The notes below the pieces were generated by a model. The model saw nothing but the letters and a program-made list of their open reading frames with translations. It was not told the origin of the DNA and searched no databases. A program made the position numbers and the translations under genes. 64,000 bases of DNA from Pyrinomonadaceae bacterium. Lineage in GTDB: Bacteria > Acidobacteriota > Blastocatellia > Pyrinomonadales > Pyrinomonadaceae. The stretch is from positions 826-64,825 of the forward strand of contig DATLMN010000065.1 in the NCBI GenBank assembly GCA_035537255.1, read 5' to 3'. This document shows positions 1-47,253 of the stretch, piece by piece (position 1 is the stretch's first letter; every line of letters starts with the position of its first letter).

Positions 1-162
1 GCGCAACTGGAAACGCTGATGCGCGATTGCGAAGATGCCATCAACGGAGCGCCCATCAGCGCCCGCCGCTCACTTGAATTGATCACACGCCTGCGCGAGG
101 TCGAGCGCTCGCTTGGCCTCAGGATGCGCGCACGCGAAATCAAGCAGGCCAAAGAAAGATGA
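1..162 (+). CDS. 3' end of an upstream CDS (hypothetical, last 53 aa)
   Basis: Frame +1 is open from the window edge to TGA at 160-162 (...LRMRAREIKQAKER*). No recognisable domain in the visible part. Confidence 0.35.
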   Translation, partial: AQLETLMRDCEDAINGAPISARRSLELITRLREVERSLGLRMRAREIKQAKER

Positions 163-165
163 CTC

Positions 166-262
166 AATTTTGAATTTTAGATTTTGGATTTCGGATTGAA
201 AGACATATCCTATTGCGTCGAAGTCGCTAGCTAATCCAAGAGCCAATTCTAAAATCTAAAAT
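166..262. repeat. Heptamer-arm inverted repeat, family A copy 1
   Basis: 5' arm TTTTGAA TTTTAGA TTTTGGA TTTCGGA; 3' arm AATCCAAGAGCCAATTCTAAAATCTAAAAT. Spans from 4 nt after TGA (160-162) to the ATG at 261. Confidence 0.85.
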
Positions 263-1214
263 GCTCCAACATGTCTCCTCGACAGTCGAACAGATTCTGA
301 CAGAGCTTCGCAAGATCGTCGTCGGCCAGGACGAGCCCATAGAGCAAATCATGGTCGCGCTGCTGGCCGAAGGGCACGCGCTGATCGAGGGCGTGCCGGG
401 CACGGCGAAGACTCTGACCGTCAAGACGCTCGCGCGTATCATCGGCGCAGGTTTTAGCCGCATACAGTTTACGCCAGACCTGATGCCTTCGGACATCACG
501 GGTACGAACGTCTTTAACGTCGCCACCTCGGATTTTACTCTGCGACGAGGGCCTGTCTTTACGGACATCCTGCTGGCGGACGAGATCAACCGCACACCGC
601 CGAAGACGCAGGCCGCGCTCCTTGAAGCGATGGAAGAGCGACAGGTCACGATTGACGGCGATCAGCATCCTCTCTCGCCGCTCTTTACCGTGCTTGCTAC
701 GGAAAATCCGATTGAGTACGAAGGCACGTACCCGCTCCCGGAAGCGCAGCTTGATCGCTTCCTGCTCAAAATCCTGCTCGACTATCCCAGTGAGCAGGCG
801 GAGCAACAGGTCGTCGCCAACTGGGACGCTGGCTTTAACGCGCGCCGCCTTGAACAGGTCGACATTCGCCCTCTGGCCGAGCCGGACGCCATCTCAAAGT
901 GTCGCATGGAAGTGCGCGAGGCACGCATGGAGCCTGGCGTGCAGCGTTACATCGTAGAGATCGTGCGCCGCACGCGCGCGCATCCATCCGTGCTTTACGG
1001 CGCGAGCCCACGCGCATCCGTTGCGCTCCTGCTCTGCACCAAGGCGCTCTCCGCACTTCGCGGCAGAGAATTCGCCACGCCCGACGACGTGCGCGACATC
1101 GCGCGACCCGTACTGCGCCACCGTTTATCGCTACGCGCCGAAGCAGAACTCGACGGCGCAACACCCGACGCCGTCATCACAGACATCTTGCAGACCGTTG
1201 AAGTACCAAGATGA
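261..1214 (+). CDS. MoxR-class AAA+ ATPase
   Basis: 317-aa ORF with Walker A GVPGTAKT and [27 protein letters not shown], typical of MoxR-type ATPases. Followed by a DUF58 gene as in MoxR/Bat-type operons. The ATG sits inside the 3' arm of repeat A1 and has no SD. Confidence 0.9.
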
Positions 1215-1338
1215 TTCCATTTTGGATTTTAGATTTTGGGTTTTGGATTGGCACGTTACGCAGGTTGAAAGCCTCGATTCCAAAATTCAACATAACGAAT
1301 CGCTAATCTAAAATCCAAAATCTAAAATCCAAAATTGA
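1215..1338. repeat. Heptamer-arm inverted repeat, family A copy 2
   Basis: 5' arm TTTTGGA TTTTAGA TTTTGGG TTTTGGA; 3' arm TAATCTA AAATCCA AAATCTA AAATCCA AAATT. Starts right after the moxR stop (1212-1214) and ends 4-6 nt before the ATG at 1342. Confidence 0.9.
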
Positions 1339-1341
1339 CCG

Positions 1342-2661
1342 ATGCGTTTCGTTTTCACCAAACTCTTTTACGTGTTGCTCGCGGTGGGCTTTATTCCGTT
1401 GTCGCTCTCCTGGGGGCGGCCCATTTTGCGCTGGGCGACGCTTTTCTTTGACATAGTGCTGATTACGCTGGCGCTGATCGACGCGCGTATGAGCCGCTGG
1501 CCTGCGGGTGTCGAGGTCTTGCGCGAGTTCGGCGGGCGCTTTGCCGTCGGCGCGGAGACGGAGGTGCGAGTCCGTGTGCTGAATAACACTGCGAGCGCAG
1601 TCACTGTCTGGGTGAAGGACGAGTTTCCGCCGGAGATGGAGTTGAAGGGTTTGCGTGAGGCGCGCATTCGTGTGCAAGCGCTGGAGACGGCCGCGCTCCA
1701 TTACGAGTTGAAGCCGCCAAAACGCGGGCGCTTCGTTTTCGGCCACACGGCCCTGCGTTATCTTTCGCGTTTTGGTCTGGCGTGGTGTCAAAGGCACGTG
1801 GGCGAGCCCTTCGCCGTCAAGGTCTATCCGAATATGCGGCGGGCGCGCGAAGCGGAGTTGAAGGCGCTGGGTGCGCGCTCGCTGGTGGCCGCGCATCGTC
1901 GTTCTTCCTGGCGCGGCGAGGGTCGCGAGTTTGAATCTTTGCGCGACTATGTGCGCGGGGACGAACTGCGTCATGTCTCATGGACGGCGACCGCACGACG
2001 CGGCAGGCTCGTCACACGTCAGTACCAGATAGAGCGCGATCAAACCATTCTGGTGGCTTTGGACGCCGGGCGTTTGATGACGGCGCGCATAGAGCGCGAG
2101 ACGAAACTCGATCTGGCGATTCATGCGACGCTGGCGCTGATGTCTGCGGCGGCGCGCGGCGGCGACAATGCCGGAATAGTCGTCTTCGGTCGGCGCATCA
2201 AATCTTACCTGCCGCCCAAACGCGGCGGCGAGCACATGGACGCGGCCCTCGAAGCCCTCTACGCCGTCGAGCCGGAGATGATCGAGCCATCCTATGCGCG
2301 CGCCTTCGAGTTCATCGCCGCCAACTGTAAGCGGCGCGCTCTGGTCGTCGTCCTCACAGACCTCGTGGACGAAGAGGGCTCGCGCGAGCTGCTGACATCG
2401 CTCAAGCTTTTGCGCCCGCGACATCTGCCGCTCGTCGTCACCATAGGGGATCGCGACCTCAAGGAAGTCGTCCGCCACACGCCCGCAACGACGCGCGACC
2501 TTTTCACGCAATCCGTCGCCGAAGAGATTATCCATCAACGCGAGGCAGCGCTGCGCCGCGTCGAATCACAGGGCGGCCTCGCGCTCGACGTAACAGCCGC
2601 CGCACTCGCGCCGACGCTTCTGGAAAAGTACTTGCAGGTCAAAGAGCGAGGACTACTTTAA
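1342..2661 (+). CDS. DUF58 domain protein (MoxR partner, vWA-like)
   Basis: 439-aa ORF with N-terminal TM helices and the DUF58 signature REFESLRDYVRGDELRHVSW..RRGRLVTRQYQIERD. Lies directly downstream of the MoxR gene. Confidence 0.85.
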   Translation: MRFVFTKLFYVLLAVGFIPLSLSWGRPILRWATLFFDIVLITLALIDARMSRWPAGVEVLREFGGRFAVGAETEVRVRVLNNTASAVTVWVKDEFPPEMELKGLREARIRVQALETAALHYELKPPKRGRFVFGHTALRYLSRFGLAWCQRHVGEPFAVKVYPNMRRAREAELKALGARSLVAAHRRSSWRGEGREFESLRDYVRGDELRHVSWTATARRGRLVTRQYQIERDQTILVALDAGRLMTARIERETKLDLAIHATLALMSAAARGGDNAGIVVFGRRIKSYLPPKRGGEHMDAALEALYAVEPEMIEPSYARAFEFIAANCKRRALVVVLTDLVDEEGSRELLTSLKLLRPRHLPLVVTIGDRDLKEVVRHTPATTRDLFTQSVAEEIIHQREAALRRVESQGGLALDVTAAALAPTLLEKYLQVKERGLL

Positions 2662-2816
2662 AAGGGATGAGGGCGGAGGGATGAGGGATGAAAGAAATGC
2701 TGATTCAACTAGCTCAGTTGGTAGAGCGGCAGACTCTTAATCTGTGGTGCAGTAGTTCGAGCATACTTGAATAACTTCTCATTCATCCCTCATCCCTCCG
2801 CCCTCATCCCTTTTTT
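2662..2816. repeat. Heptamer-arm inverted repeat, family C copy 1 (carries the tRNA-like core at its apex)
   Basis: 5' arm GGGATGA GGGCGGA GGGATGA GGGATGA (2664-2691); 3' arm TCATCCC TCATCCC TCCGCCC TCATCCC (2783-2810). Confidence 0.9.
2702..2773 (+). tRNA. tRNA-Lys(CTT)-like element, non-canonical acceptor and T arms (probable pseudo-tRNA or tRNA-like structure)
   Basis: The D arm TAGCTCAGTTGGTAGAGC and the anticodon arm GCAGA-CTCTTAA-TCTGT (anticodon CTT at 2736-2738) are canonical. The T arm is AGTAG-TTCGAGC-ATACT with a G53:A61 mismatch. The acceptor only pairs as 6 A/T bp (ATTCAA/TTGAAT) with a 1-nt register shift. No CCA is encoded. Confidence 0.5.
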
Positions 2817-3770
2817 CTCCTCTTCTCTGCCGACGAGTAATAGATAGCTGTAGAGGGCTATGCCGGTCAGAGCGGCGACGCTGAATTTGATCGCGGGATG
2901 AATGGGCGCGGGAGAGATAAAGCCTTCGATGATTCCGGCCAGCACGAGCAGCGCGGCGCAACCGGCGATGAGGCGGACGGCTTCGAGGCCGCGCGTCTTC
3001 AGAGCATCGGCACGCGACAAATCGCCTGGCACGAGCAGCGCGCTTCCGATCAGGAGGCCCGCGCCTCCGGCGATAAAGATACAGGAAAGCTCTATCACGC
3101 CGTGCCCGACGACGAAAGCGAGCAGGTCATTGCCGTAGCCCGCGCGATAGACGAGCGCGAAGAGCGCGCCGAAGAGCGCACCGTTGTAGGCCATCAGATA
3201 GAGCGTGCCGACGCCGAACATCGCGCCCAGCGCAAAGGCGTAAAAAGTGACGCCGATGTTGTTCGTCAGAATCTCGCTTGAGCCGACCTGATTCGCCTCA
3301 TTCAAATCTTCCCACCAGTGTATGCGCGCGTCGACGATGTGACGCATCATCGGATGAATCCCGGCGAACTCTGAAAACTCCGGATCGCGCCAAGTGCCGA
3401 CAAATCCAATGAGGGCGAAGACCCAGAAGAAGGCGAACGTAATGGCCGTGTAGCGCCATGTGCGGCGAAACGTTTGCGGAAAGTCGCGCGTGAAAAAATC
3501 TCGCACACGGCGTCCGCCCTGCGCGTCTGCCTGATAGATGCGGCCATGCGCGCGAATGACCAGACTGTTCAGATAGTTGACCAGACGCGGGTCGCGCGAT
3601 TCGGCGCGCGCAATCGCCAGGTCAGAGGCCGTGCGGCGATAGATGCGCCCCAGCTCTCGCACCTCCTCGCGATTCAAACGACGCAAAGACGAACGATCCA
3701 GCAGCGCCAGTAAATCCTCCAGCCGCTGCCAGGCATTTCGACGCGCTAAGATAAATCGATTAGAAGACAT
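2790..3770 (-). CDS. SpoIIM/DUF95-like integral membrane protein
   Basis: 326-aa ORF. N-terminal soluble region (..RLEDLL..LRRLNREEVRELGRIYRRTASDLAIAR) followed by multiple TM helices, typical of the DUF95 proteins found beside MoxR/DUF58 genes. The last ~8 codons and the stop codon lie inside repeat C1. Confidence 0.7.
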   Translation of the reverse strand: MSSNRFILARRNAWQRLEDLLALLDRSSLRRLNREEVRELGRIYRRTASDLAIARAESRDPRLVNYLNSLVIRAHGRIYQADAQGGRRVRDFFTRDFPQTFRRTWRYTAITFAFFWVFALIGFVGTWRDPEFSEFAGIHPMMRHIVDARIHWWEDLNEANQVGSSEILTNNIGVTFYAFALGAMFGVGTLYLMAYNGALFGALFALVYRAGYGNDLLAFVVGHGVIELSCIFIAGGAGLLIGSALLVPGDLSRADALKTRGLEAVRLIAGCAALLVLAGIIEGFISPAPIHPAIKFSVAALTGIALYSYLLLVGREEEKKGMRAEG

Positions 3771-3774
3771 GTGG

Positions 3775-3874
3775 ATAGTTTTCAGTTTTCAGCAATCAGT
3801 TTTCAGAAGTTGAAAGCCGCACGACAGGTGTTAATATAAACGCTGGTCGCTGAAAACTAAAAACTGAAAACTAT
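3775..3874. repeat. Heptamer-arm inverted repeat, family B copy 1
   Basis: AGTTTTC AGTTTTC AGCAATC AGTTTTC ... GCTGAAAACTAAAAACTGAAAACT. Occupies the whole divergent gap between starts 3770 (-) and 3879 (+). Confidence 0.9.
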
Positions 3875-3878
3875 TTGT

Positions 3879-5417
3879 ATGGATCGCCTCGTCGAATGTG
3901 TACCAAACTTTAGCGAAGGTCGCAAGCCTGAAGTGATCGAGCGGCTGGCTCAAACCGTCGAGTCTGTCGAAGGCGCGGTCGTCCTGGACACGCACATCGA
4001 CGCCGATCACAACCGCTCTGTGATTACGTTCGTCGCGGAAGCGGAACAGGTGGTCGAGGCCGCCGTGCGTGTGGTCGCGCTCGCCTCAGAGCTGATCGAT
4101 CTGCGCCAGCACAGGGGCGAGCACCCGCGTCTTGGCGCAACCGATGTACTGCCTTTTGTTCCCGTGCGCGGCGTGATGATGGAGGACTGCATACGATTGG
4201 CCCACGAGGCGGGCGAGCGCATAGCCTTTGAGCTTGGCATTCCCGTCTACTTTTATGAGCGCGCCGCGCGCCGTCCTGATCGTGTGAATCTGGAAGACGT
4301 GCGCCGTGGCGGCTACGAGCTGCTGCGCGAAGAGATCGCAAGCGTAGAGCGCCGCGCGCCGGACGTGGGCCCACCACGACTGCATGAAAACGCCGGGGCC
4401 ATCGTCGTCGGCGCGCGACCTCTGCTCGTCGCCTATAACGTCAATCTGCAAACCGACGATATATCAATCGCCAGACGAATTGCGCACGCCGTGCGCGGGC
4501 GCGATGGAGGCTTACGCTATCTTAAAGCGCTCGGCTTCGAGCTTCAGACGCGCGGTATTGTGCAGGTCTCCATGAACCTGATCGATTACGAGAAGACGCA
4601 GCTTCATCACGCCTTCGAGGCCGTGCGCCGCGAGGCGTTGCGTTACGGCGTCTCTATCGTGGGCAGCGAGATCGTAGGGCTTATCCCGCAGGCCGCGCTC
4701 GACCGCGCCGCCGAATATCATTTACAGATTGAGAATTTCGCGCCCGGACTGGTGCTCGAAAATCGGATCGCAGCGGCGTTCACTGGTAAGGGCGAAAAGG
4801 AGACCGTCAGGGATTTCGCGCAGGCCGTGGCGAGCGCAGAGCCTGCGCCGGGCGGTGGCGCGGCTGCTGCACAGGCGGCATCGCTTGGCGCGGCGCTCGG
4901 CGAGATGATCGGCCACCTGACTGAGGGGCGTGAAAAATTCGCAGACGTGCAGCAAGAGATAGAGGAAGCGCTCGCAGAGTTAGCGCCGTTGCGCAATCAT
5001 CTGCGCCTTGCGGCCGCGCGCGATGCGGAGAGTTTTCAGCGCGTCGTGGATGCGCGCGGCCTTCCGCGTTCGACGGAAGATGAGAGAGTCCTGCGCGCCA
5101 GCGAGATAGAGGCGGCCTTGAAGGGCGCGGCGACCGTGCCGCTTGAGATTGCCAAGTTGGCGGTGCAGGTGCTTGAGCTGCTTGAAACCCTGTCGGAGAT
5201 CGGCAATCCGGTTGCCCTGTCGGACGCCGCCACGGGCGCGCAGCTAGCTCTGGCCTCGGTCGCCTCCGCGCGCTACAACGTGCTCGTCAATACGGCGGAG
5301 ATTGAAGATGAAGAGTTTGCCAGGGAGCATCGTTCGCGCGCAGATGATCTCATGGAGCGCGCGAGGGGAAGCGCCGCGCGCGTCGAAGCCATGTTTATGG
5401 ATTCAATCAAAGCTTGA
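3879..5417 (+). CDS. ftcD: Bifunctional glutamate formimidoyltransferase / formimidoyltetrahydrofolate cyclodeaminase
   Basis: N-terminus MDRLVECVPNFSEGR.. is the formiminotransferase signature. The C-terminal ~190 aa (..PAPGGGAAAAQAASLGAALGEMIG..) match the cyclodeaminase domain. Confidence 0.8.
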   Translation: MDRLVECVPNFSEGRKPEVIERLAQTVESVEGAVVLDTHIDADHNRSVITFVAEAEQVVEAAVRVVALASELIDLRQHRGEHPRLGATDVLPFVPVRGVMMEDCIRLAHEAGERIAFELGIPVYFYERAARRPDRVNLEDVRRGGYELLREEIASVERRAPDVGPPRLHENAGAIVVGARPLLVAYNVNLQTDDISIARRIAHAVRGRDGGLRYLKALGFELQTRGIVQVSMNLIDYEKTQLHHAFEAVRREALRYGVSIVGSEIVGLIPQAALDRAAEYHLQIENFAPGLVLENRIAAAFTGKGEKETVRDFAQAVASAEPAPGGGAAAAQAASLGAALGEMIGHLTEGREKFADVQQEIEEALAELAPLRNHLRLAAARDAESFQRVVDARGLPRSTEDERVLRASEIEAALKGAATVPLEIAKLAVQVLELLETLSEIGNPVALSDAATGAQLALASVASARYNVLVNTAEIEDEEFAREHRSRADDLMERARGSAARVEAMFMDSIKA

Positions 5418-5503
5418 GCCGATATTCCAAGAGGGCAATCCGAGCATCCCTTCGGTTTCGTATATTATTTTGAAGTCTGAATGAATTTGGAGAGTAGACG
5501 AAG

Positions 5504-6031
5504 ATGAACAGACGATTTTTTCTCAAATCCGCACTGACGCTCACGGCCGTCGCGGGTCTTTCTAGATTCTCAATCGTAGAGGTTTTGGCCCAGAACAATT
5601 CTACTGGGAAGAGTGCTTCGGCGCATCTGCCGTTTGCGAAGGTGATTAAAACAGATGCCGAGTGGAAACAACTGCTGACGCCCGAGCAATACTACGTCAC
5701 GCGGCAGAAGGGCACGGAAGCTCCCTATTCGAGCCCGCTCAACGATATTCACGAGAAAGGTGTTTTCCAGTGCGTCTCCTGCTCGCTGCCGCTGTTTAGC
5801 TCAAGTGCGAAGTTCGATTCAAAAACGGGCTGGCCGAGTTTCTGGACACCCATCAACAAAGTCAACGTGCGCGAAGAAGTTGATCGCAGCCTGCCGGAAG
5901 TGCGCACGGAAGTCCTCTGCAACCGCTGCGACGCGCACCTGGGGCACGTCTTCGACGACGGCCCTCCGCCGACCGGCCTGCGCTACTGCATGAACGGCGT
6001 GGCGATGAAGTTTGTCAGGAAGCGAAAATAA
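5504..6031 (+). CDS. msrB: Peptide-methionine (R)-S-oxide reductase MsrB with twin-arginine signal peptide
   Basis: N-terminus [18 protein letters not shown] (Tat-like RRFFLK). Two CxxC zinc motifs (CVSC, CNRC). GWPSFW and the catalytic RYCMNG are present. Confidence 0.9.
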
Positions 6032-6071
6032 GTGAAGACCTGTTGCAGAGATTAATGCGCGGAAAGAAATT

Positions 6072-6201
6072 AACAGGGATGGACAGAGATTGTCAGGATA
6101 AAAAACAGGAAGAAAGCATTCGTGCTTTACATCTGAAATTTAAAAACTCAACTCATCTTGTTGAGCTTTGCTTTTATCCTGCTTATCCTGTCCATCCTGT
6201 T
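6072..6201. repeat. Inverted repeat family D copy 1
   Basis: AACAGGGATGGACAGAGATTGTCAGGATAAAAA ... CTTTTATCCTGCTTATCCTGTCCATCCTGTT. Lies between the convergent msrB and hydrolase genes. Confidence 0.85.
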
Positions 6202-6254
6202 TGATTCTGCTTCGCGCGACTTGTCCCTATATTTTCATTAGCGACCTTTAATCG

Positions 6255-7283
6255 TCACAGATGCTTTTTGAAGAACGAAGCGATCTTCCAGCCGTCCAGA
6301 TAAACCCAGGGTTTCTCGCCGCTCGTGTAGTGCCCGCACGGAAGCCATGCCACATCGAGCGCGATTCCTGCGCGCCTTGTCTCTTCAATCACGTCGCGCG
6401 AGAGATCGACCGGGAAGGTCAGGTCGTGTCGCGCGGCGATAAAGCGCATCGGTCGCGGCCTGATATTCAAAAGGCGTTTGATAAAGGGCAGCGGCGAAAT
6501 CGGCAGCCAGTATTCGCGCAGCTCTTCGAGCGTTACATCTTCGCCGAATCCGGCCTTCACATGCTGTGTCGAGATGCCGCGCCACACGACATCCGCGAAA
6601 TAACCCGAGACGTGGTTAAAGACGCCGACATCTATCTGTTCTTCGTGAGCGTAAGCCAGAAAAGCCGTGCATGAGCCGATGCTCGTGCCCATGATGCCGA
6701 TCCGGTTGTAGCCTTGATGGTCGATCAGCCAGCGCACAGCCGCGCGCGCATCCAAAACCGCCTGACGCATGGATTGAATCGTGCGACCGATGTTCGAGCT
6801 GACGAGATGATCCGCCCGCTCAAGCTCTAAGGGACGGCGCGCCTCGTGATACGGAAGCGTGAGGCGCAGCGCAGAGATGCCTAGCCTGGCGAGCAGGCGA
6901 CCGAGTTCCATGTGGCTGTGCGGCTGCGCGTTCCACTGCGGAAGAATCACTATGGCCGGGCGACGATCATCCTTTGTCCTGTGCTGGCGGGCGGGGAAAA
7001 AGTGCGCACGCACAGTATTGTTTTCCGTTGACGGAGTCCGTATGGCGCTCGTCCAGGTGAGCTGTTGGCCCAACAGTTGATAGTCTTCAATCGGCGGCAG
7101 CGCATAAAATTCTTCGCTTCCTTCTAGGGCACGGCGCGCGTGTTCGCGCAACAGCTCGCGCGGGTCGTCTCCGTTCGCGTGATCCGTAATGAAAGACGTG
7201 CCCCACTCAAAGGGACGCACCACTCTGTTTTTATCGCGCTGCGAAAGATGGCGCTCGCGCGCGCGTATCAACCGTCCGAGCAA
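6255..7283 (-). CDS. Alpha/beta-fold hydrolase
   Basis: 342-aa ORF with nucleophile elbow GTSIG and a late conserved His (LPCGHY). No closer family assignment is possible by eye. Confidence 0.6.
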   Translation of the reverse strand: MLGRLIRARERHLSQRDKNRVVRPFEWGTSFITDHANGDDPRELLREHARRALEGSEEFYALPPIEDYQLLGQQLTWTSAIRTPSTENNTVRAHFFPARQHRTKDDRRPAIVILPQWNAQPHSHMELGRLLARLGISALRLTLPYHEARRPLELERADHLVSSNIGRTIQSMRQAVLDARAAVRWLIDHQGYNRIGIMGTSIGSCTAFLAYAHEEQIDVGVFNHVSGYFADVVWRGISTQHVKAGFGEDVTLEELREYWLPISPLPFIKRLLNIRPRPMRFIAARHDLTFPVDLSRDVIEETRRAGIALDVAWLPCGHYTSGEKPWVYLDGWKIASFFKKHL

Positions 7284-7370
7284 ATCCTTTTCACTGCCTC
7301 TCGTAAACTTTTACCGTCCCTCAACGGGTTCGAGCCCTGCGACGAGCGAACCATCCTAAAGAAAAGAGCT

Positions 7371-7421
7371 GTAAAAGTAAAAAGCAGAGGCGAAGGGAAC
7401 TCTCATTCCTTCGCCTCTGCT
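7371..7421 (-). terminator. Rho-independent terminator of the S8 (pseudo)gene
   Basis: Minus strand: GCAGAGGCGAAGG-aatgagagttc-CCTTCGCCTCTGC followed by TTTTTACTTTTAC. Confidence 0.8.
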
Positions 7422-7451
7422 CTTAAACCCTAAAGGGTTCTTCCCCTCAGC

Positions 7452-8977
7452 TTATGGCCGCTGCATCCAGAAGTTGTAGCTGCCGCTGCCGCTGTAAGAA
7501 ACGATACGCCAGGTGTAATAACCCGCCGTGCCGGTGTAGGTGACGTTCTCGGTTGAGGTGGCGCTTGTCCCGCTCGCCACATTGACCCACGTCGAGCCGT
7601 TCCACTTTTGCAGGTACAGGTCGAAGTCAGCACCCGAAGTTGGCCCACGCAGCCAGCCTCTGTGCGTGCCGGAGACTGAGCTGTAATAGTAAGTGCCGTC
7701 CGGCTGGAACTGAGCCGCGCCTGTGCCAGAGAGAGAGCCGCTGTAGGCTTCGCAGGCCGTGCAGGGAGCGCCACCTGTGCCGCCGCCAGTGGTCAGCAGC
7801 GAGTAGAGAAGGAGATTCGGCGAGCCCGTGCCGATTCCAGTCAGGCGGCCGGAGGTCGCCGTGCTGGTAATCGCGCTCGCAACGGTCGCGGGCGAGGCGG
7901 TCGGGTTGTTTTGTAGATAGAGCGCCGCGACTCCGGCGACGTGCGGTGACGCCATCGAAGTGCCGCTGATCGTATTGGTCGCCGTATCACTCGTGTACCA
8001 TGACGAAGTAATGCTTGTGCCCGGCGCGAACAGATCAAGACACGTGCCGTAATTCGAGGTCGAAGCACGCGCATCCGTGCTCGTCGAGTTGCCGACAGTA
8101 ATCGCTGCGGCCACACGCGCAGGCGAATAGTTACAGGCGTTCAAACCGTCATTGCCGGCGGCAATCGCATAAGTCACGCCAGAGTTAATAGAGTTCTGCA
8201 CTGCCGTATCGAGCGTCGGCGACGCGCCGCCACCCAGACTCATGTTAGCGACAGCAGGGTTCTGGTGATTGGCCGTCACCCAGTCAACGCCAGCGATGAC
8301 GGTCGAGTCCGTGCCGTTGCCCGCGCAGTCGAGCACGCGCACCGCATGAAGGCTGACGCCTTTGGCGACGCCGTAGGTGCTGCCGCCGACAGTGCCCGCG
8401 ACATGCGTGCCGTGTCCGGCGCAGTCGTTGCCGTTCTGCCCGTCGCCGATGGAGTCGAAGACCTTGTTGGCGCGTCCGCCGAACTGTGTGTGGGTGGTGC
8501 GAATGCCTGTGTCTATGACGTAGACGTGAACGCCTGCGCCGGTCGGGGTGTAAGTGTAGTTGCCGTCGAGCGGACGGTCACGCTGGTCTATGCGGTCGAG
8601 TCCCCACGTTGCACCCGTCTGCGTTGTATCGCCGTGAATGATACCGTCCTCTTCCACGTACGCCACGCGCGCATCCTGACTGAGCGCCAGCGCATCCGCT
8701 TCAGCGATCTCGATTGAGAAACCGCTGACGGCGTGTTTGTAGACGTGCTTGACCTTACCGTTGTAGATCGCTGCGAGGTTCTCTGCGATCTCCTTCGCGG
8801 CTGAGCCTTCGCCTTTTGCCCGACGGCCCAATCTTCAAGCACTACGATGTAGCTGTTCTCTACCCTTTTCTCTTTTTTACGAATTTTGTCTTTAGAGCCT
8901 TGACCCTGAACCGAACCGGAAATGAACATCATGGCGCACATCGCCGCCAAGACCACCGCTGTCACAAATTTCTTCAT
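7452..8977 (-). pseudogene. Secreted S8 (subtilisin/proteinase-K-like) peptidase with I9 propeptide and C-terminal PPC-like domain, interrupted by a 1-nt frameshift
   Basis: ORF 8588..8995 encodes the SD (AAGGAG), the signal peptide MKKFVTAVVLAAMCAMMFISGSVQG and the propeptide start [15 protein letters not shown] 7452..8831 continues [29 protein letters not shown].. with the catalytic D, H (HGTHVAGT) and S ([11 protein letters not shown]). The two frames switch within ~8810-8834, next to a GGGCAAAAGG run. Confidence 0.7.
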
Positions 8978-9107
8978 CTTTACTCCTTCGCTCATGTTGA
9001 GAGGTTAATCGTGAGTGGTAAATAAATTAGCGAACGGGGCTGTCGAAAAAACTCCTCCTTGATGAAGTACCTACGAGCTCCAAGTGGCGAGGCTTACGAG
9101 GTTCGTA

Positions 9108-9152
9108 GAAAAAGGGTGATGGGGAGCTTCCATGGAAGCTCCCCATCTTTTT
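9108..9152 (-). terminator. Rho-independent terminator of S8/PA peptidase gene (bidirectional-type)
   Basis: Perfect palindrome GATGGGGAGCTTCCATGGAAGCTCCCCATC, flanked by A5 on one side and ACCCTTTTTC on the other on the minus strand. Confidence 0.8.
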
Positions 9153-9160
9153 AATCGTGG

Positions 9161-10849
9161 TTACTTGCCTGTCCGCGCCATCGCGGCATCGGCGTTAACC
9201 AGACCATTACCGAACGTTGTGTCATAGCCCGCCGCGCCGAGGTCTGTGGCGGACTTCTTCAGCGCGTCTTCAATCGCAGCAGCCGTATAAGTGGGATTGG
9301 CTGCCCAGATCAGAGCCGCGACACCTGTGACATGCGGCGTCGCCATAGACGTGCCGCTGTTGTAATCCCAGTTGGTCGCCTTGTTGACGACTGTGCCGTT
9401 CGTGCCAGCCTGAGCGATAAGCGTCGCGCCCGTCACGTCCGAGACGGTCACGGCGGGAACCCATGCGCGTCCGTCCGTAGTGGTGGCTGCGCCGAGCGTG
9501 CCGCCGAAATCTCCTGCCACGTTGTTGTAAACGATGGCCGCGACTGCTCCGGCGTTCATCGCGTTCTGGACTTTTTCGGCAAAGCTGAGCGTGCCCCGCT
9601 GGATAACCGCGATGTTACCCGAGACGGAAGCCGGAAATTCGCCGACCTGACCGAGGCCGCAGTTGACCAGCGTGCGTGTGATGCCGTTGGTCTGACCCGC
9701 GAAAGTCATCCCGAAGGCCGCGAAAGTCGCGGTGCTCGTCACGGAAGTGTCAAAGCCCTGTCCAAGCGGCACACTGGAAGCAACGTCGACGCCCGGGCCG
9801 ACCAGGTCTATGGCCGTCGTTCCGCGATTCGAGAAGCTCGCAATGGCATTGTTCTTATCCACAGCGCCGACCGCGAGGTTGACCGTGTAGGCCGCAGGAT
9901 AGCTGACCTGATTGGTGAAACCGTCGTTGCCCGTGGCCGCGACGATGATCGCGCCGTACTTGTTGCGGCAGTCGTTATAGAAGCGCTGCTCGGAAAGGGA
10001 AGGAGCGCCGCCGCCTAGACTCATGTTGACGAGGTCGACCTTCGGCCCTGCGGCGTCAGAGACGAGCCACTTGACACCGGCCATGATGCCGGAGCTTGAG
10101 CCTGTCGCAGTGCCGCTGGCCGCATCGCCCTTGAGGACGCGCGCATGATACAGACGCGCACTGTAGGCAGCGCCGTAGACGCCATAGTTGCTGCCCCTGA
10201 CGCCTAGAATCGTTCCGGCCACGTGCGTGCCGTGCGACTCCAAGGGATCGTTATTCCACCAGGGATTGCCGTCCCTTTCGAACGTGTCGTAACCGGCCAC
10301 GTAGTTGGCCGCGATGTCCGGATGCGTGTAGTCCAGACCCGTGTCGGCGATGCCTACTTTAAAGCTCGCGCCGGAATATCCGCGCGCGTGAACGTTGGTC
10401 GTCTTTGTAGTTACCAAGCCGTAAAGGCCGTTGGTAGCGGTCGGCACGAGTTCGCTGGTCGTGAGGTCTGAGAGTCCCATCGCGTAGCGCATGGGTTCCT
10501 GTTCGACGTATTCGACGTTGGGATTATTTTGAAGTGCGGCAAGCTGATTGGGATTATGAATCTCTATAGCAATGAATCTTTGTTCGGGGAACTCGTGACG
10601 CACTGTAGCGCCGTGAGACTTAACCATCGCGCGGTTGGCGGCTGTCACGCCGTTTTTGAAAGAGACGAAATACCTGCCTTCGGCAAAGTCCGGGCGATGC
10701 GAGGCGGCTGCTGATTGTGTCTGATCCGAGAAGCGACCGCCTGAAGGGCCATCCAGGCGATTACGCCCCTGCTGACCAACGACAAGGACAGAAGCAAGCG
10801 TCATAGCGCATAAAGCTACTGCAAGGGATAACGCGAAAACTTTCTTCAT
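9161..10849 (-). CDS. Secreted S8 peptidase with inserted PA domain
   Basis: Signal peptide MKKVFALSLAVALCAMTLA. Catalytic motifs [20 protein letters not shown] and GTSMATPHVTG. PA-like insert ..GNIAVIQRGTLSFAEKVQNAMNAGAVAAIVYNN. Confidence 0.85.
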   Translation of the reverse strand: MKKVFALSLAVALCAMTLASVLVVGQQGRNRLDGPSGGRFSDQTQSAAASHRPDFAEGRYFVSFKNGVTAANRAMVKSHGATVRHEFPEQRFIAIEIHNPNQLAALQNNPNVEYVEQEPMRYAMGLSDLTTSELVPTATNGLYGLVTTKTTNVHARGYSGASFKVGIADTGLDYTHPDIAANYVAGYDTFERDGNPWWNNDPLESHGTHVAGTILGVRGSNYGVYGAAYSARLYHARVLKGDAASGTATGSSSGIMAGVKWLVSDAAGPKVDLVNMSLGGGAPSLSEQRFYNDCRNKYGAIIVAATGNDGFTNQVSYPAAYTVNLAVGAVDKNNAIASFSNRGTTAIDLVGPGVDVASSVPLGQGFDTSVTSTATFAAFGMTFAGQTNGITRTLVNCGLGQVGEFPASVSGNIAVIQRGTLSFAEKVQNAMNAGAVAAIVYNNVAGDFGGTLGAATTTDGRAWVPAVTVSDVTGATLIAQAGTNGTVVNKATNWDYNSGTSMATPHVTGVAALIWAANPTYTAAAIEDALKKSATDLGAAGYDTTFGNGLVNADAAMARTGK

Positions 10850-18434: not shown

Positions 18435-18501
18435 TAGTTTTCAGTTTTCAGTAATCAGTTTTCAGTTAAAACAAAAAGCTGAAAACTCAAAACTGAAAAC
18501 T
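18435..18501. repeat. Heptamer-arm inverted repeat, family B copy 2
   Basis: AGTTTTC AGTTTTC AGTAATC AGTTTTC ... GCTGAAAACTCAAAACTGAAAACT. Lies between the CcdA-Trx stop and the Trx-like gene start. Confidence 0.9.
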
Positions 18502-18503
18502 GT

Positions 18504-24587: not shown

Positions 24588-24709
24588 CAGAAGTCAGAAA
24601 TCAGGACTCAGAATTCAGAATAGAGGCGCGGCAGGTGCTTCTTACCTTGAACTATGATTCCTGAACGACGCTCTTCTACTGACTCCTGAATTCTGAGTCC
24701 TGAGTCCTA
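24588..24709. repeat. Heptamer-arm inverted repeat, family F
   Basis: TCAGAAA TCAGGAC TCAGAAT TCAGAAT ... CTACTGA CTCCTGA ATTCTGA GTCCTGA GTCCT. Lies in the divergent gap between thiO-like and IDH. Confidence 0.9.
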
Positions 24710-24713
24710 TCTT

Positions 24714-25715
<1,002 letters not shown>

Positions 25716-32995: not shown

Positions 32996-33098
32996 TTCAC
33001 CGCAGAGGCGCAGAGTTTACGCAGAGCAGACGCAGAGAGTGGAATTTAATTCTCTGCGTCTGCTCTGCGCCTTTCTCTCTGTGCGTCTCTGCGGTGAA
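32996..33098. repeat. Inverted repeat family H copy 1 (CAGAG-unit arms)
   Basis: TTCACCGCAGAGGCGCAGAGTTTACGCAGAGCAGACGCAGAGAG ... CTCTGCGTCTGCTCTGCGCC..CTCTGTGCGTCTCTGCGGTGAA. Confidence 0.85.
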
Positions 33099-45685: not shown

Positions 45686-45797
45686 AAAAATAAGGGATGA
45701 AGGATGAGGGATGAGGGATGAAGTAAAGACGGACTGAATGATTCAACACTTGGTCGGTTCAATCATTCATCCCTCACGCTGCCGCCCTCATCCCTTC
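45686..45797. repeat. Heptamer-arm inverted repeat, family C copy 2
   Basis: GGGATGA AGGATGA GGGATGA GGGATGA ... TTCATCCCTCACGCTGCCGCCCTCATCCC, with inner palindrome GAATGATT/AATCATTC. Lies between phoB and phoR. Confidence 0.9.
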
Positions 45798-46482
45798 TAT
45801 TGGCGCATCCGACAAAGCGATAGCCAACGCCGATGACTGTTTCCAGGCACGAGCCGCAGTCGCCAAGCTTTTGTCTAAGGCGACGAATATGTACGTCCAG
45901 AGTGCGCGTGTCGCCGTAATACTGGTGTCCCCAGACATCGTCCAGGAGTCGCTGGCGCGTCGCGACGCGACCGGCGCTCTTTGCCAGCATGGAGAGCAGC
46001 GCAAACTCCTTGCGTGTGAGCTTGACGCTCTCGCCGTCGCAAGTGACCTGCATATCTGCGAAATCAATCTGTAGACGACTGTCCTCGTAACGCGCGCTCT
46101 GATTATCGTCTGTGCGGCGCAACACTGCGCGAACGCGCGCCATCAGCTCGCGCACGGAGAAAGGCTTCGCAATGTAGTCGTCAGCGCCAAGATCAAGCCC
46201 GGCTACACGATCAGCCTCAGAGACGCGCGCCGTCAACATAATAATCGGGGTGCGTCGCGTCGCGGGCTCGCGCCTGAGGCGGCGGCACAACTCCATGCCG
46301 CTCATTCCCGGCAGCATCAAATCCAGAATCACGAGCGCCGGTGGACTCTTGACATCGAGCGCCGCCGCCAGGCCCTTTTCGCCCGTCTCGGCAATTCGCA
46401 CCTCAAGCCCGTCGCGCTCTAGATTGTAGCGCAGGCTCTCCGCAATATCCGCGTCATCTTCGACGATCAGTATAGGTCGCAT
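45763..46482 (-). CDS. phoB: OmpR-family response regulator (PhoB-like)
   Basis: Receiver domain ILIVEDD..DLMLPG..; winged-helix C-terminus ..IGVGYRF. The last ~11 codons and the stop are encoded by repeat C2. Confidence 0.8.
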   Translation of the reverse strand: MRPILIVEDDADIAESLRYNLERDGLEVRIAETGEKGLAAALDVKSPPALVILDLMLPGMSGMELCRRLRREPATRRTPIIMLTARVSEADRVAGLDLGADDYIAKPFSVRELMARVRAVLRRTDDNQSARYEDSRLQIDFADMQVTCDGESVKLTRKEFALLSMLAKSAGRVATRQRLLDDVWGHQYYGDTRTLDVHIRRLRQKLGDCGSCLETVIGVGYRFVGCANRRDEGGSVRDE

Positions 46483-46593
46483 AAAAGCAGGGATGAGGGC
46501 GGAGGGATGAGGGATGAAAGGGGTTGAGCGAATGATTCATTTGTAATGTGATTCAGCGGTTCATCCCTCATCCTTCATCCCTCATCCCTTCGT
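46483..46593. repeat. Heptamer-arm inverted repeat, family C copy 3
   Basis: GGGATGA GGGCGGA GGGATGA GGGATGA ... TCATCCC TCATCCT TCATCCC TCATCCC. Lies between phoU and phoB. Confidence 0.9.
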
Positions 46594-47253
46594 TCAGTTG
46601 CTGTGTTTGATAAAGGCGGCTTCGGTCATGTAAACGGTCAGCTCGCAGATGTCCGTGACGTAATCGCCGATGCGTTCGATGTGTTTGGCGACGAAGAGCA
46701 GTCGCGCGGCGCGCGTCGTCGTCGCAGGGTCTTGGGTCATCAGCTCGATCAGATCGTGAAAGATGCCATTATAGAGTTCGTCTATCTGGTCGTCCCGCGC
46801 GATGACTCTGCGCGCGGCCGCCGCATCATTGGTAGTGAAGGCGTTAAGTGCAGCATGCAGCATGCTGGCCGCGTGCTCTGCCATCAGCGGCAGATCGACG
46901 TGGGTTTTGAGTTGCGGCTCATCGTTAAGGTCAATGGTGGCGCGGGCGATGTTGCAGGCGTGATCGGCGATGCGTTCCAGGAGCGGCGTGATCTTCGCCA
47001 CGGAGATGACGAAGCGCAGGTCGCGCGCCGCCGGTTGACGCAGCGCGATGGTGTCGACGCAGAGACGATCTATTTCCAGCTCAAGTTGATCTATCTCGTC
47101 ATCGCCCGCGAGAACTTCACGCGCCGTCGCGCTATCGCGTTCGACCAGCGCGTACATAGCTCTCTGAAGCGCCGTCTCCGTCTCGCCGCCCAGCAGCAGC
47201 ACGCGGTCACGTAAAACGCCCAGCTCGCGATCAAGTAATCTATGCTGTTCCAT
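46594..47253 (-). CDS. phoU: Phosphate signalling complex protein PhoU
   Basis: 219 aa with the two PhoU repeats containing E/DxxxD-type motifs (..RIADHACNIA.. / ..RIGDYVTDIC..). Confidence 0.9.
   Translation of the reverse strand: MEQHRLLDRELGVLRDRVLLLGGETETALQRAMYALVERDSATAREVLAGDDEIDQLELEIDRLCVDTIALRQPAARDLRFVISVAKITPLLERIADHACNIARATIDLNDEPQLKTHVDLPLMAEHAASMLHAALNAFTTNDAAAARRVIARDDQIDELYNGIFHDLIELMTQDPATTTRAARLLFVAKHIERIGDYVTDICELTVYMTEAAFIKHSN

What the first reader, a model, noticed from the sequence alone, without database searches (positions are those of the whole stretch)
2662..2816. A tRNA-Lys(CTT)-like core sits exactly at the apex of a family-C hairpin; another copy of the element has the empty site
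The C1 loop reads ..GATTCAAC-[TAGCTCAGTTGGTAGAGCGGCAGACTCTTAATCTGTGGTGCAGTAGTTCGAGCATAC]-TTGAATAACTTCTCATTCATCCC. The C4 loop (50203-50235) reads ..CAGTTCAAC-TTGAATAATTTCTTATTCATCCC. The 57-nt tRNA body is therefore present or absent precisely between TTCAAC and TTGAATAA.

The acceptor stem of the tRNA-like structure is supplied by the element's own small palindrome ATTCAA/TTGAAT. The D arm and anticodon arm are textbook tRNA-Lys. In contrast, the T stem has a G53:A61 mismatch, the acceptor stem is 6 A/T pairs in a shifted register, and no CCA is encoded.

Three readings are possible. It may be a decaying tRNA gene that seeded the repeat family. It may be a tRNA fragment captured by the element. 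Or it may be a functional tRNA-like processing signal (an RNase P/Z handle) at the 3' end of the moxR-DUF58 transcript. No integrase or att-type duplication is nearby.
Basis: seen in the sequence. Interest (0 to 1): 0.65.

Follow-up and report, generated by a model that had tools for sequence, protein, structure and literature searches.

The report
tRNA-Lys relic inside a palindromic repeat
A 57-base piece of a lysine tRNA sits exactly at the centre of a common intergenic palindrome in a soil acidobacterium; it is real but rare and lineage-specific, and it is more likely a decaying captured tRNA fragment than a working tRNA gene.

Summary
Window 2660-2814 is a hairpin with 36-nt arms (97% complementary) built of GGGATGA heptamers. 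A tRNA-Lys(CTT) body (2710-2766) lies exactly at its dyad centre, and the repeat's own apex palindrome ATTCAA/TTGAAT supplies the acceptor stem.

ARAGORN calls it a tRNA. Rfam scores it 39.2 bits (gathering score 29), but the geometry is off: G1·A72, a register shift, a 4-5 bp T stem and G53:A61.

The host is a Pyrinomonadaceae bacterium. The hairpin between the convergent DUF58 and SpoIIM genes is ancestral. Four orthologous loci (L001, L011, L015, L005) carry it without any tRNA, and L001 shares the left junction base for base.

The filled form appears in only two other public datasets:
- X25 has a 114-nt contig nearly identical to the window, with C61 restoring the T stem.
- X3 has the same body at the same locus but inverted, with a different broken T stem.

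Exact-pattern scans of GTDB genomes and JGI metagenomes found no other copy and no donor tRNA.

Best reading (confidence 0.58): a tRNA-derived fragment was gained once at the tip of a REP-like palindrome, was then inverted or converted through the arms, and is now decaying in the T arm. It is co-transcribed as 3'-UTR loop cargo. A function as a tRNA-like processing handle is not excluded, because no RNA data exist.

The parts
2660..2695 (+). Left arm of the family-C palindrome. It consists of an A-run followed by GGGATGA-type heptamers and overlaps the DUF58 stop codon at 2659-2661.
   Evidence: I1: 36 nt, 97% complementary
2696..2709 (+). Left apex flank AATGCTGATTCAAC. This sequence pre-exists in empty copies. 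ATTCAA (2703-2708) serves as the 5' acceptor strand.
   Evidence: Identical in the L001 ortholog and in empty contigs of X1 and X26; ARAGORN fold
2710..2766 (+). 57-nt insert corresponding to tRNA-Lys(CTT) positions 8-64: D arm, anticodon arm, variable loop GGTGC and most of the T arm.
   Evidence: Absent from all orthologs (alignment A1).
2736..2738 (+). Anticodon CTT
   Evidence: ARAGORN places the anticodon at position 35 of 2702-2775
2763..2763 (+). A at tRNA position 61, which breaks the G53:C61 pair. The X25 copy has C here.
   Evidence: A>C at 2763 in the 114-nt X25 contig
2767..2778 (+). Right apex flank TTGAATAACTTC. TTGAAT acts as the 3' acceptor strand, with T2767 doubling as position 65 or 66. 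A2773 or A2774 acts as the discriminator, depending on the fold. No CCA is encoded.
   Evidence: The same flank occurs in C4 and in X3.
2779..2814 (+). Right arm of the palindrome, followed by a T-run ending at 2816. It encodes the last 8 codons and the stop codon (2790-2792) of SpoIIM on the minus strand.
1342..2661 (+). DUF58/vWA gene of the moxR-DUF58 operon. The hairpin lies in its 3' UTR.
   Evidence: PF01882, PF13519
2790..3770 (-). Convergent SpoIIM-family membrane protein gene
   Evidence: PF01944
50174..50258 (+). Family-C copy C4. This is an empty paralog with apex CAGTTCAAC|TTGAATAATTTCTTAT, located between pstS and pstC.
   Evidence: (I4)
46484..46594 (+). Family-C copy C3 with the other loop type, located between phoU and phoB.
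   Evidence: (I5)
45687..45801 (+). Family-C copy C2, located between phoB and phoR.
   Evidence: (I6)

Best explanation
**Host element.** The host is one copy of an abundant, REP-like intergenic palindrome of Pyrinomonadaceae. Its arms are tandem GGGATGA heptamers. Its roughly 34-nt loop has its own small palindrome, GATTCAA-S-TTGAAT. This copy sits between the convergent DUF58 and SpoIIM genes, where an A-run precedes it and a T-run follows it. It most likely acts as a bidirectional terminator and 3'-end stabiliser (inferred).

**Insertion.** In the common ancestor of the window strain and the X3 strain, a 57-nt piece of a tRNA-Lys(CTT) gene (positions 8-64) became lodged exactly at the dyad centre, which is the hairpin or cruciform tip. 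Anything inserted at the centre of a palindrome is automatically flanked by complementary sequence. The repeat's ATTCAA/TTGAAT therefore mimics an acceptor stem, and gene finders call a tRNA.

**Likely route (inferred).** Breakage or polymerase stalling at the extruded hairpin tip was repaired by microhomology-guided copying of a tRNA gene, using AC^T at both junctions. Alternatively, the fragment arrived by gene conversion from another filled family-C copy.

**Later history.**
- The loop was inverted, or converted in the opposite orientation, through the inverted arms (X3).
- The T arm has been damaged independently: C61 to A in the window, and a 5-nt patch TCCGG in X3.
- X25 keeps the intact T stem.

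**Present role.** The insert has no recognisable promoter of its own and is transcribed only as part of the 3' UTR hairpin loop. It is probably not a decoding tRNA. It is loop cargo in slow decay.

**Shown versus inferred.** Shown: the anatomy, the empty orthologs, the rarity, the inversion and the T-arm variants. Inferred: the insertion mechanism, the terminator role and the lack of function.
For: **Anatomy**
- establish the structure described above.

**Empty orthologs**
- L001 (97% protein identity) has the left junction identical base for base, with no insert.
- L005, L011 and L015 are also empty. Alignment A1 shows a clean 57-nt gap in all of them.
- No tRNA was found in any of 12 related loci.

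**Phylogenetic placement**
- In the adjacent 245 nt of SpoIIM, X3 differs from the window at 18 positions and L001 at 24. The two filled copies therefore appear to be each other's closest relatives (an 18 versus 24 margin), and a single gain is most parsimonious.

**Rarity**
- The T-arm 21-mer gave 0 hits in GTDB genomes and in JGI metagenomes.
- The pattern arm + N{5,35} + D-arm gave 0 hits in JGI metagenomes.
- Only one run holds the sampled 31-mers.
- No contig covers 2743-2792 in X1, X2, X4 or X5.
- By contrast, the arms reach word depths in the thousands in the same soil runs.

**Not an assembly artefact**
- Independent contigs from X25 and X3 carry the insert.

**Signs of decay or relaxed constraint**
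- The 3' strand of the T stem is CCTAC in X25, CATAC in the window and TCCGG in X3.
- ARAGORN folds a 7-bp acceptor with G1·A72, a 3-nt linker at positions 8-9 and a 4-bp T stem.
- Rfam needs a 2-nt deletion in the acceptor stem.
- The score is 39.2 bits, against 71.9 bits for a phage tRNA-Lys(CTT) that shares the same 25-nt stretch spanning the 3' part of the D arm and the anticodon arm.
- The cloverleaf energy is -10.6 to -13.5 kcal/mol, against an MFE of -17.9 kcal/mol.

**No own promoter and no mobility genes**
- No sigma-70-like promoter was found.
- No integrase, transposase, reverse transcriptase or Ro60 was found among the 45 of 50 window ORFs scanned.

**REP-like behaviour of the host family**
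- The other copies are intercistronic in the pstSCAB-phoU-phoBR operon.
Against: - **Precise boundaries.** The insert begins exactly at U8 and ends at position 64/65. This is more precise than random fragment capture predicts, and it hints at a structure-guided mechanism or at selection for a complete cloverleaf when the insert arose.
- **Intact body.** All universal tertiary nucleotides are present (U8, A14, G18G19, A21, U33, G53T54T55C56, A58, C48). In X25 every stem is intact.
- **Age without heavy decay.** The copy has persisted across about 7% flank divergence (X3) without heavy decay of the D and anticodon arms.
- **Possible other context.** The X25 copy is about 98% identical to the window, yet the flanking genes were not found there at 95% or higher. 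The filled element may also exist in another genomic context.
- **No donor found.** The 35-mer spanning the D and anticodon arms gave 0 hits in 185,579 species genomes, so the insert is not a fresh copy of any sampled tRNA.
- **AT-rich T stem.** The AGTAG/CTACT stem looks inherited from a functional tRNA rather than produced by decay.
- **Untested points.** There are no expression data. The rest of the source genome could not be inspected for a second tRNA-Lys(CTT).
Confidence: 0.58

Rival explanations
1. **Functional tRNA-like 3'-UTR module.** The cloverleaf at the tip of the long stem would be recognised by RNase P and/or RNase Z, or would simply block 3' exonucleases. It would define or protect the 3' end of the moxR-DUF58 mRNA. 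In the inverted X3 form it would do the same for the SpoIIM mRNA. This would work like plant-mitochondrial t-elements or the MALAT1 mascRNA.
For: - The tRNA-like sequence lies sense to a converging gene in both orientations.
- The body has intact tertiary nucleotides, and the X25 variant has a perfect T stem.
- The insert boundaries coincide with the ends of the acceptor stem.
- There is no promoter of its own, so it can only be expressed as part of an mRNA.
Against: - Every other ortholog examined lacks it.
- The T arm, which RNase P and RNase Z measure, is the part that is mutating.
- Acceptor plus T stacking is 10-11 bp, not 12.
- Leader and trailer are locked together in a 36-bp duplex.
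- The cloverleaf is not the predicted fold.
- There are no RNA data.
Confidence: 0.2
2. **Working tRNA-Lys(CTT) gene.** The transcript would be processed out of the hairpin, given CCA post-transcriptionally and charged by LysRS. The acceptor stem would be unusual.
For: - ARAGORN and Rfam both call it above their thresholds.
- The anticodon loop is canonical, and an A sits at the discriminator position.
- AAG is the commoner lysine codon in the five neighbouring genes (28 AAG against 20 AAA).
Against: - It shows a G1·A72 mismatch, an A/T-rich acceptor, an extra linker nucleotide or a 5-bp acceptor, and G53:A61.
- It scores 39.2 bits, well below the 71.9 bits of the tRNA-Lys(CTT) on L013.
- It is absent at this locus in relatives with 97% to 84% identity.
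- The T arm is broken in a different way in X3.
- It has no promoter.
Confidence: 0.07
3. **Ancestral tRNA gene that seeded family C.** The apex palindrome ATTCAA/TTGAAT of all family-C copies would be the remnant acceptor stem. Empty copies would arise by structure-mediated precise deletion of the body between the ACT...ACT microrepeats.
For: - A 3-nt direct repeat (AC^T) lies at both junctions at the base of a stem. This is the classic substrate for slipped-strand deletion.
- The ATTCAA motif recurs in many family-C loops.
Against: - Empties outnumber filled copies by orders of magnitude.
- Outgroup orthologs are all empty, and only the window and X3, which look most closely related (18 versus 24 differences in 245 nt), are filled.
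- Family-C loops include a second, unrelated loop type of 43-44 nt.
- An A/T-rich acceptor stem with a G·A closing mismatch is unlikely for a founder tRNA in a 57% GC genome.
Confidence: 0.05
4. **Assembly artefact.** The insert would be a chimeric join created in a high-copy repeat.
For: The arms are extremely repetitive in soil metagenomes, and several related contigs break at them (L010 and L012).
Against: - The same arrangement appears in independent runs from other studies: X25, a 114-nt contig spanning both junctions, and X3.
- A k-mer assembler cannot join a tRNA body lacking both acceptor strands to unique apex flanks on both sides.
Confidence: 0.02

Closest known systems
tRNA pseudogenes and tRNA-derived fragments in bacterial genomes
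   Same: - It has clear sequence descent from a tRNA-Lys(CTT): 34 of 35 bases match a genuine soil tRNA over the D and anticodon arms.
- Its structure is defective.
- It is not conserved among relatives.
   Different: - Such remnants usually lie next to integrated elements, as att-site duplications of the tRNA 3' end.
- Here the piece is the internal body (positions 8-64), without either acceptor strand.
- It lies at the exact dyad of a repeat, with no integrase nearby.
- The host repeat supplies a surrogate acceptor stem.
REP/BIME-type repetitive extragenic palindromes, described in for example PMC3733652 (this comparison concerns the host element)
   Same: - These are high-copy, short intergenic palindromes.
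- They are placed right after stop codons, between convergent genes, and between cistrons. Here they sit between pstS and pstC, phoU and phoB, and phoB and phoR.
- They are expected to act in termination and mRNA stabilisation.
   Different: - The arms are tandem heptamer repeats (GGGATGA), 28-36 nt long, with loops of 33-68 nt. REPs are compact 20-40 bp palindromes.
- No GTAG or CGTC end tag is present.
- No RAYT-type transposase was found in the window.
- Several parallel heptamer families coexist.
tRNA-like mRNA end-processing signals: plant-mitochondrial t-elements, the mitochondrial tRNA punctuation model and the MALAT1 mascRNA (recalled from my own knowledge)
   Same: A tRNA-shaped fold sits at the 3' end of a longer transcript and could recruit RNase P or RNase Z.
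   Different: - Those elements are conserved and experimentally processed.
- This one is lineage-specific, has a shortened acceptor/T stack and is clamped inside a 36-bp duplex.
- Its processing is untested.
Bacterial Y RNA YrlA (PMC4201824)
   Same: The architecture is similar: a long stem formed by the 5' and 3' ends, with a tRNA-like domain at its tip. M. smegmatis YrlA is cut by RNase P and receives CCA.
   Different: - YrlA is encoded next to rsr (Ro60) and carries the GNCGAAN0-1G motif.
- Neither feature is present here, and there is no Rfam hit.
- Here the tRNA-like part keeps a full canonical anticodon arm, that of tRNA-Lys(CTT).

Membership tests
Canonical tRNA (Rfam RF00005) or functional tRNA-Lys gene | Covariance-model score at or above the gathering score, and a call from a tRNA gene finder | tested here: met
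   Rfam gives 39.2 bits against 29. ARAGORN calls tRNA-Lys(ctt) at 2702-2775.
Canonical tRNA (Rfam RF00005) or functional tRNA-Lys gene | A 7-bp acceptor stem plus a 5-bp T stem (12-bp coaxial stack), with a 2-nt linker at positions 8-9 | tested here: not met
   Rfam finds a 5-bp acceptor with a 2-nt deletion. ARAGORN finds a 7-bp acceptor with G1·A72, a 3-nt linker and a 4-bp T stem.
Canonical tRNA (Rfam RF00005) or functional tRNA-Lys gene | The conserved G53:C61 pair and T-loop | tested here: not met
   The window has A at position 61 (2763). C61 is present only in the X25 variant. In X3, positions 60-64 read TCCGG.
Canonical tRNA (Rfam RF00005) or functional tRNA-Lys gene | Conservation of the gene at the orthologous locus in close relatives | tested here: not met
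   It is absent from L001, L005, L011 and L015. It is also absent from the loci carrying an APH insertion.
Canonical tRNA (Rfam RF00005) or functional tRNA-Lys gene | Expression, 5' and 3' processing, CCA addition and aminoacylation | not testable with these tools
   No RNA run holds the locus.
REP/BIME-like extragenic palindromes (host element) | A high-copy intergenic imperfect palindrome found at gene ends and between cistrons | tested here: met
   The window holds four copies and the relatives hold more. Word depth reaches the thousands in soil runs.
REP/BIME-like extragenic palindromes (host element) | A GTAG or CGTC tetranucleotide tag at one end, and an associated RAYT transposase (PMC3733652) | tested here: not met
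   The arm ends read AAAAGGGATGA.../...TCATCCCTTTT, with no tag. No Y1 transposase was found among 45 window ORFs. The rest of the genome was not seen.
MITE | Terminal inverted repeats flanked by a target-site duplication | tested here: not met
   No direct duplication flanks C1-C4.
Bacterial Y RNA (YrlA) | Encoded adjacent to rsr (Ro60/TROVE), a GNCGAAN0-1G motif, and a match to the Rfam model | tested here: not met
   The neighbours are MoxR, DUF58, SpoIIM, FTCD and MsrB. The motif is absent on both strands. No Y-RNA hit appears at E <= 10.
Intrinsic (Rho-independent) terminator | A G+C-rich stem immediately followed by a U-tract | tested here: inconclusive
   A 36-bp stem is followed by T6 at 2811-2816, and the other strand has a T4 run (the complement of A2660-2663).

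The most novel reading that the evidence does not exclude
The apex palindrome of this repeat family would work as a ready-made acceptor stem. A tRNA body dropped at the dyad would become a complete, processable tRNA-like unit. It would serve either as a bacterial counterpart of mitochondrial t-elements marking mRNA 3' ends, or as a newly born tRNA gene. The surrounding high-copy inverted arms could then flip it or copy it to other loci by recombination. In that case the filled element would be a repeat-borne, mobile tRNA-like module rather than debris.
Probability: 0.12. Interest if true: 0.7.

Novelty: new variant of a known kind. Interest (0 to 1): 0.4.

Why it matters
If this is only a relic, it still has practical value. 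Gene finders will annotate it as a tRNA-Lys gene in Pyrinomonadaceae MAGs, which inflates tRNA counts. It also gives a clean, datable example of templated or captured insertion at the tip of a bacterial palindrome. Its later history, inversion and patch-wise change, documents recombination among REP-like repeats.

If the tRNA-like fold is processed, it would be a rare bacterial case of a tRNA-shaped mRNA end signal. It would also show how repeat palindromes can supply an acceptor stem to create new tRNA-like RNAs.

The host repeats themselves are several families of heptamer-built hairpins at nearly every operon junction. They appear undescribed and may be the more rewarding subject.

Tried and rejected
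- **Finding the source genome.** The exact DUF58 protein is not on record. The best relative is 97% identical, so the genome's other tRNA-Lys genes could not be inspected.
- **Donor search.** The 35-mer covering the D and anticodon arms gave 0 hits in GTDB genomes. The T-arm 21-mer gave 0 hits in genomes, metagenomes and viral contigs. A 25-mer hit only a jumbo-phage tRNA array with a different D arm, which is not the donor.
- **Search for further filled copies.** The pattern arm + N{5,35} + D-arm gave 0 hits in JGI metagenomes. That pattern would miss copies with variant arms such as X3.
- **Retrieving the X3 contig through a SpoIIM C-terminal protein search.** The search returned only short, distant fragments. 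The full-length SpoIIM search and the last two look-ups gave an APH-insertion locus and one more empty ortholog.
- **Reading the four X3 substitutions in 2699-2747.** The read laying difference table stayed empty for these pieces. I could only show two things: at least one substitution lies in 2714-2761, and probably none lies in 2748-2761, which rests on that empty table for a stretch where the X3 contig is the only depth.
- **RNA evidence.** No RNA runs were found.
- **YrlA or other known RNA.** Only generic long-hairpin matches to miRNA precursors appeared, all below their gathering scores.
- **Thermodynamic folding.** The MFE is a rod, not a cloverleaf. This is weak evidence, because real tRNAs also depend on tertiary contacts and modifications.
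- **X1 "empty allele".** The 61-nt X1 contig has a different left arm (AAAGCAGGGATGAAGG...), so it is a paralog and not the C1 locus.
Full report
**1. What is in the sequence**

Window 2660-2814 is a long inverted repeat. The arms are 2660-2695 and 2779-2814, 36 nt each and 97% complementary (I1). They are built of GGGATGA-type heptamers, with AAAA before and TTTTTT after.

The left arm starts inside the stop codon of a DUF58/vWA gene (1342-2661, plus strand). The right arm encodes the last eight codons and the stop of a convergent SpoIIM-family gene (2790-3770, minus strand).

The 83 nt between the arms (2696-2778) read AATGCTGATTCAAC - 57 nt - TTGAATAACTTC. The 57 nt (2710-2766) are a textbook tRNA body from U8 to position 64:
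- D stem GCTC/GAGC, with A14, G18G19 and A21.
- Anticodon stem GCAGA/TCTGT, with loop CTCTTAA (anticodon CTT at 2736-2738).
- Variable loop GGTGC.
- T stem-loop AGTAG-TTCGAGC-ATAC.

ARAGORN reports tRNA-Lys(ctt) at 2702-2775. Rfam RF00005 gives 39.2 bits against a gathering score of 29, with E = 9.6e-5 over the whole window.

**2. How tRNA-like it really is**

The acceptor helix is the repeat's own small palindrome, ATTCAA/TTGAAT. No fold gives canonical geometry.
- Rfam pairs only 5 bp of acceptor and deletes two 3' positions.
- ARAGORN draws a 7-bp acceptor closed by a G1·A72 mismatch, three nucleotides instead of two between the acceptor and D stems, and a 4-bp T stem.
- In the window, position 61 is A, which breaks the near-universal G53:C61 pair.
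- No CCA is encoded.
- The cloverleaf evaluates at -10.6 kcal/mol for the window, and at -12.9 to -13.5 kcal/mol with C61. A rod-like MFE fold reaches -17.9 kcal/mol.
- Within the whole element, forcing the cloverleaf costs about 8.5 kcal/mol (-83.0 against -91.5).
- As a benchmark, a phage tRNA-Lys(CTT) that shares the 25-nt stretch GGTAGAGCGGCAGACTCTTAATCTG with the insert scores 71.9 bits with the same model.
- No sigma-70-like promoter precedes the insert. It can only be transcribed as part of the DUF58 3' UTR.

**3. The host element**

GGGATGAGGGATGAA-type arms occur at four places in the window, against 0.11 matches expected by chance. The copies are C1 (this one), C2 at 45687-45801, C3 at 46484-46594 and C4 at 50174-50258.

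Pfam annotation shows that C2-C4 are intercistronic in a pstS-pstC-pstA-pstB-phoU-phoB-phoR cluster on the minus strand. Their positions are pstS|C4|pstC, phoU|C3|phoB and phoB|C2|phoR. This is how REP/BIME elements behave.

Relatives carry the same family at other junctions. In soil metagenome contigs the arms reach word depths in the thousands.

Loops come in two types:
- A 33-34-nt type with the apex GCTGATTCAA-S-TTGAAT, seen in C4, the L001 ortholog and L011 at 7297.
- A 43-44-nt type.

C1's loop is 91 nt, which equals 34 + 57. The window also holds several other hairpin families built from different heptamers.

**4. Organism and orthologous loci**

DUF58 homologues are named Pyrinomonadaceae (Acidobacteriota) by their sources. 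The source genome itself is not in the collections.

I fetched the DUF58|SpoIIM junction from relatives.
- L001/L002 (97% protein identity)...GGGATGAAAGGAATGCTGATTCAAC|TTGCAGGCTTTCTTATTCATCCC... This is the same hairpin with the same left junction and no insert.
- L011 (91%): an AGGATGA-armed hairpin with apex GCATTCAAGACATTGAAGC.
- L015 (SpoIIM 90% identical): apex GCTGTTCAAGCCGAATAAC.
- L005/L006 (90%): a related heptamer hairpin.
- L003, L008, L009 and L014: an APH-family gene has replaced the junction.
- L007 (81%, from a 6.27-Mb contig): other palindromes.
- L010 and L012: the contigs end in the left arm.

ARAGORN finds no tRNA in any of these loci. Alignment A1 shows a clean 57-nt gap in every ortholog and in C4. 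The hairpin is therefore ancestral at this junction and the tRNA body is not.

**5. Other occurrences of the filled form**

Exact scans found nothing:
- The T-arm 21-mer in GTDB genomes and JGI metagenomes.
- Arm + N{5,35} + D-arm in JGI metagenomes.
- The T-arm pattern in viral contigs.

The k-mer index of public runs found one run, X25. It holds a 114-nt contig equal to window 2681-2794, with two differences. One of them is A2763C, which restores G53:C61 and gives a perfect 5-bp T stem. Positions 2714-2761 are 100% identical. The flanking genes were not found in X25 at 95% or higher, so its context is unknown.

Run X3 holds a 390-nt contig with two parts:
- Positions 146-390 match window 2821-3065 (the end of SpoIIM) with 18 differences.
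- Positions 53-135 match the reverse complement of 2679-2761.

The same body, with the same left junction, therefore sits at the orthologous locus but is inverted relative to the flanks. Beyond 2761 the X3 contig reads TCCGG-TTGAATAACTTCTTATTCATCCCTC. Its 3' T-stem strand is thus TCCGG, against CATAC in the window and CCTAC in X25.

X1 holds the closest strain, with several flank pieces 100% identical. It shows no contig over 2743-2792, and neither do X2, X4 and X5.

Empty copies with an identical left apex and a TTGAATAGTTTCTTAT right apex occur in X1 and X26. The X1 copy has a different left arm, so it is a paralog.

**6. Polarity and history**

In the 245 nt next to the element, X3 differs from the window at 18 positions and L001 at 24. 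More distant orthologs differ at 33-37. By this modest margin the two filled loci are each other's closest relatives, and all outgroups are empty.

One gain in their common ancestor is the parsimonious reading. The alternative, several independent precise losses, is mechanically possible because ACT microrepeats lie at the base of a stem, but it needs more events.

Between L001 and the window, the second heptamer of the left arm changed from AGGATGA to GGGCGGA. The new version matches both the right arm and the left arms of C3 and C4. The right apex changed from TTGCAGGCT to TTGAATAAC, which resembles C4. These clustered changes look like gene conversion among family-C copies.

The insert may therefore have arisen in another copy and been copied here. 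The X3 inversion can be explained either by recombination between the inverted arms or by conversion from an oppositely oriented copy.

The three versions of the T-arm 3' strand (intact, one mismatch, and a 5-nt patch) indicate relaxed constraint on the part of a tRNA that processing enzymes measure.

**7. Origin of the fragment**

The donor is unidentified. A genuine-looking soil tRNA (..GGGCCGA|TAGCTCAG...) matches 34 of 35 bases over 2710-2744. However, the exact 35-mer is absent from 185,579 species genomes.

The AT-rich T stem AGTAG/CTACT and the variable loop GGTGC were matched by nothing in the exact scans: the 21-mer spanning them is absent from GTDB genomes, JGI metagenomes and viral contigs.

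The insert has no inverted or direct terminal repeats beyond the AC^T microhomology. There is no target duplication. No integrase, transposase or reverse transcriptase was found among the 45 of 50 window ORFs scanned.

Insertion exactly at the dyad centre points to the hairpin or cruciform tip as the site of breakage or polymerase stalling. Repair would then have used short microhomology to copy or capture tRNA-gene DNA. This step is inference.

The coincidence of the insert ends with tRNA positions 8 and 64/65 remains the most striking unexplained feature.

**8. Comparison with known systems**

- As a tRNA it fails the geometry, G53:C61 and conservation tests, although it passes the detection thresholds.
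- The host behaves like REP/BIME elements but lacks their GTAG/CGTC tag and compact form (PMC3733652).
- Architecturally, a long stem capped by a tRNA-like domain recalls bacterial Y RNA YrlA (PMC4201824). There is no rsr neighbour, no GNCGAAN0-1G motif and no Rfam hit.
- Functionally, the nearest analogues for the "processing handle" idea are mitochondrial t-elements, tRNA punctuation and mascRNA (recalled from my own knowledge).

**9. Verdict**

The feature is real and unusual, but it is rare and lineage-specific. The best explanation is a tRNA-derived fragment captured at the tip of a REP-like palindrome and now decaying (confidence about 0.58).

A functional tRNA-like 3'-UTR module is not excluded (about 0.2). 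A decoding tRNA is unlikely (about 0.07). The "founder of the family" reading is disfavoured (about 0.05), and an assembly artefact is excluded for practical purposes (about 0.02).

Interest is moderate at 0.4. The heptamer-hairpin repeat system that hosts the insert may deserve more attention than the insert itself.

Noticed in passing
window 174-262, 1216-1338, 3775-3874, 18436-18510, 24588-24716, 32996-33098, 37813-37899, 47259-47346: There are several further families of long intergenic hairpins whose arms are tandem heptamer repeats (TTTTGGA/TTTTAGA, CAGTTTT, CAGAAxT, CRCAGAG). They sit at gene junctions, for example between moxR and DUF58 and between pstB and phoU. I found no description of this genome-wide system of heptamer-built palindromes in the literature searches I ran.
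   Followed up: partly
window 45687-45801, 46484-46594, 50174-50258: Family-C hairpins are intercistronic within a pstSCAB-phoU-phoB-phoR cluster on the minus strand. This position is typical of REP-like mRNA stabilisers or attenuators that set differential expression within an operon.
   Followed up: partly
window 2664-2687 (+) and 2787-2810 (-): Each family-C arm reads GGGATGAGGGCGGAGGGATGAGGG on its own strand, which is a canonical (G3N4)4 G-quadruplex motif. Transcripts in either direction start the element with a potential G4 that competes with the hairpin.
   Followed up: no
window 2790-2814; L001 11394-11420: The SpoIIM ORF runs into the right arm of the palindrome. Its last 8 codons (..EKKGMRAEG*) and its stop codon are repeat-encoded. 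The same holds in relatives.
   Followed up: no
window 2671-2677 compared with L001 11332-11338: The second heptamer of the left arm differs at three positions between close relatives (GGGCGGA against AGGATGA). In the window this makes the arms perfectly complementary. This suggests concerted change by gene conversion among repeat copies or between arms.
   Followed up: partly
L003 11354-12304, L008 1581-2534, L009 11375-12301, L014 3417-4367: In several relatives an APH-family phosphotransferase gene (PF01636) occupies the DUF58|SpoIIM junction in place of the hairpin. This junction is a hotspot of gene-content change.
   Followed up: no
window 31245-31339 and 31351-31397; L007 11350-11560: An Acido-Lenti-1 RNA (39.6 bits against a gathering score of 37) lies directly after a palindrome with 34-nt arms containing GAGCCCCGAAGGGGCGA. 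A similar GAGCCCCTGAAAGGGGCGAAAGAA palindrome family occurs at the DUF58 junction of the 81% relative L007.
   Followed up: no
L013 (IMGVR_UViG_3300009093_000034, 305,833 nt contig) 1-9842: This viral contig carries an array of 19-20 tRNA genes in under 10 kb, including five tRNA-Lys. It was found only because one of them contains the 25-mer GGTAGAGCGGCAGACTCTTAATCTG. It is not the donor.
   Followed up: partly
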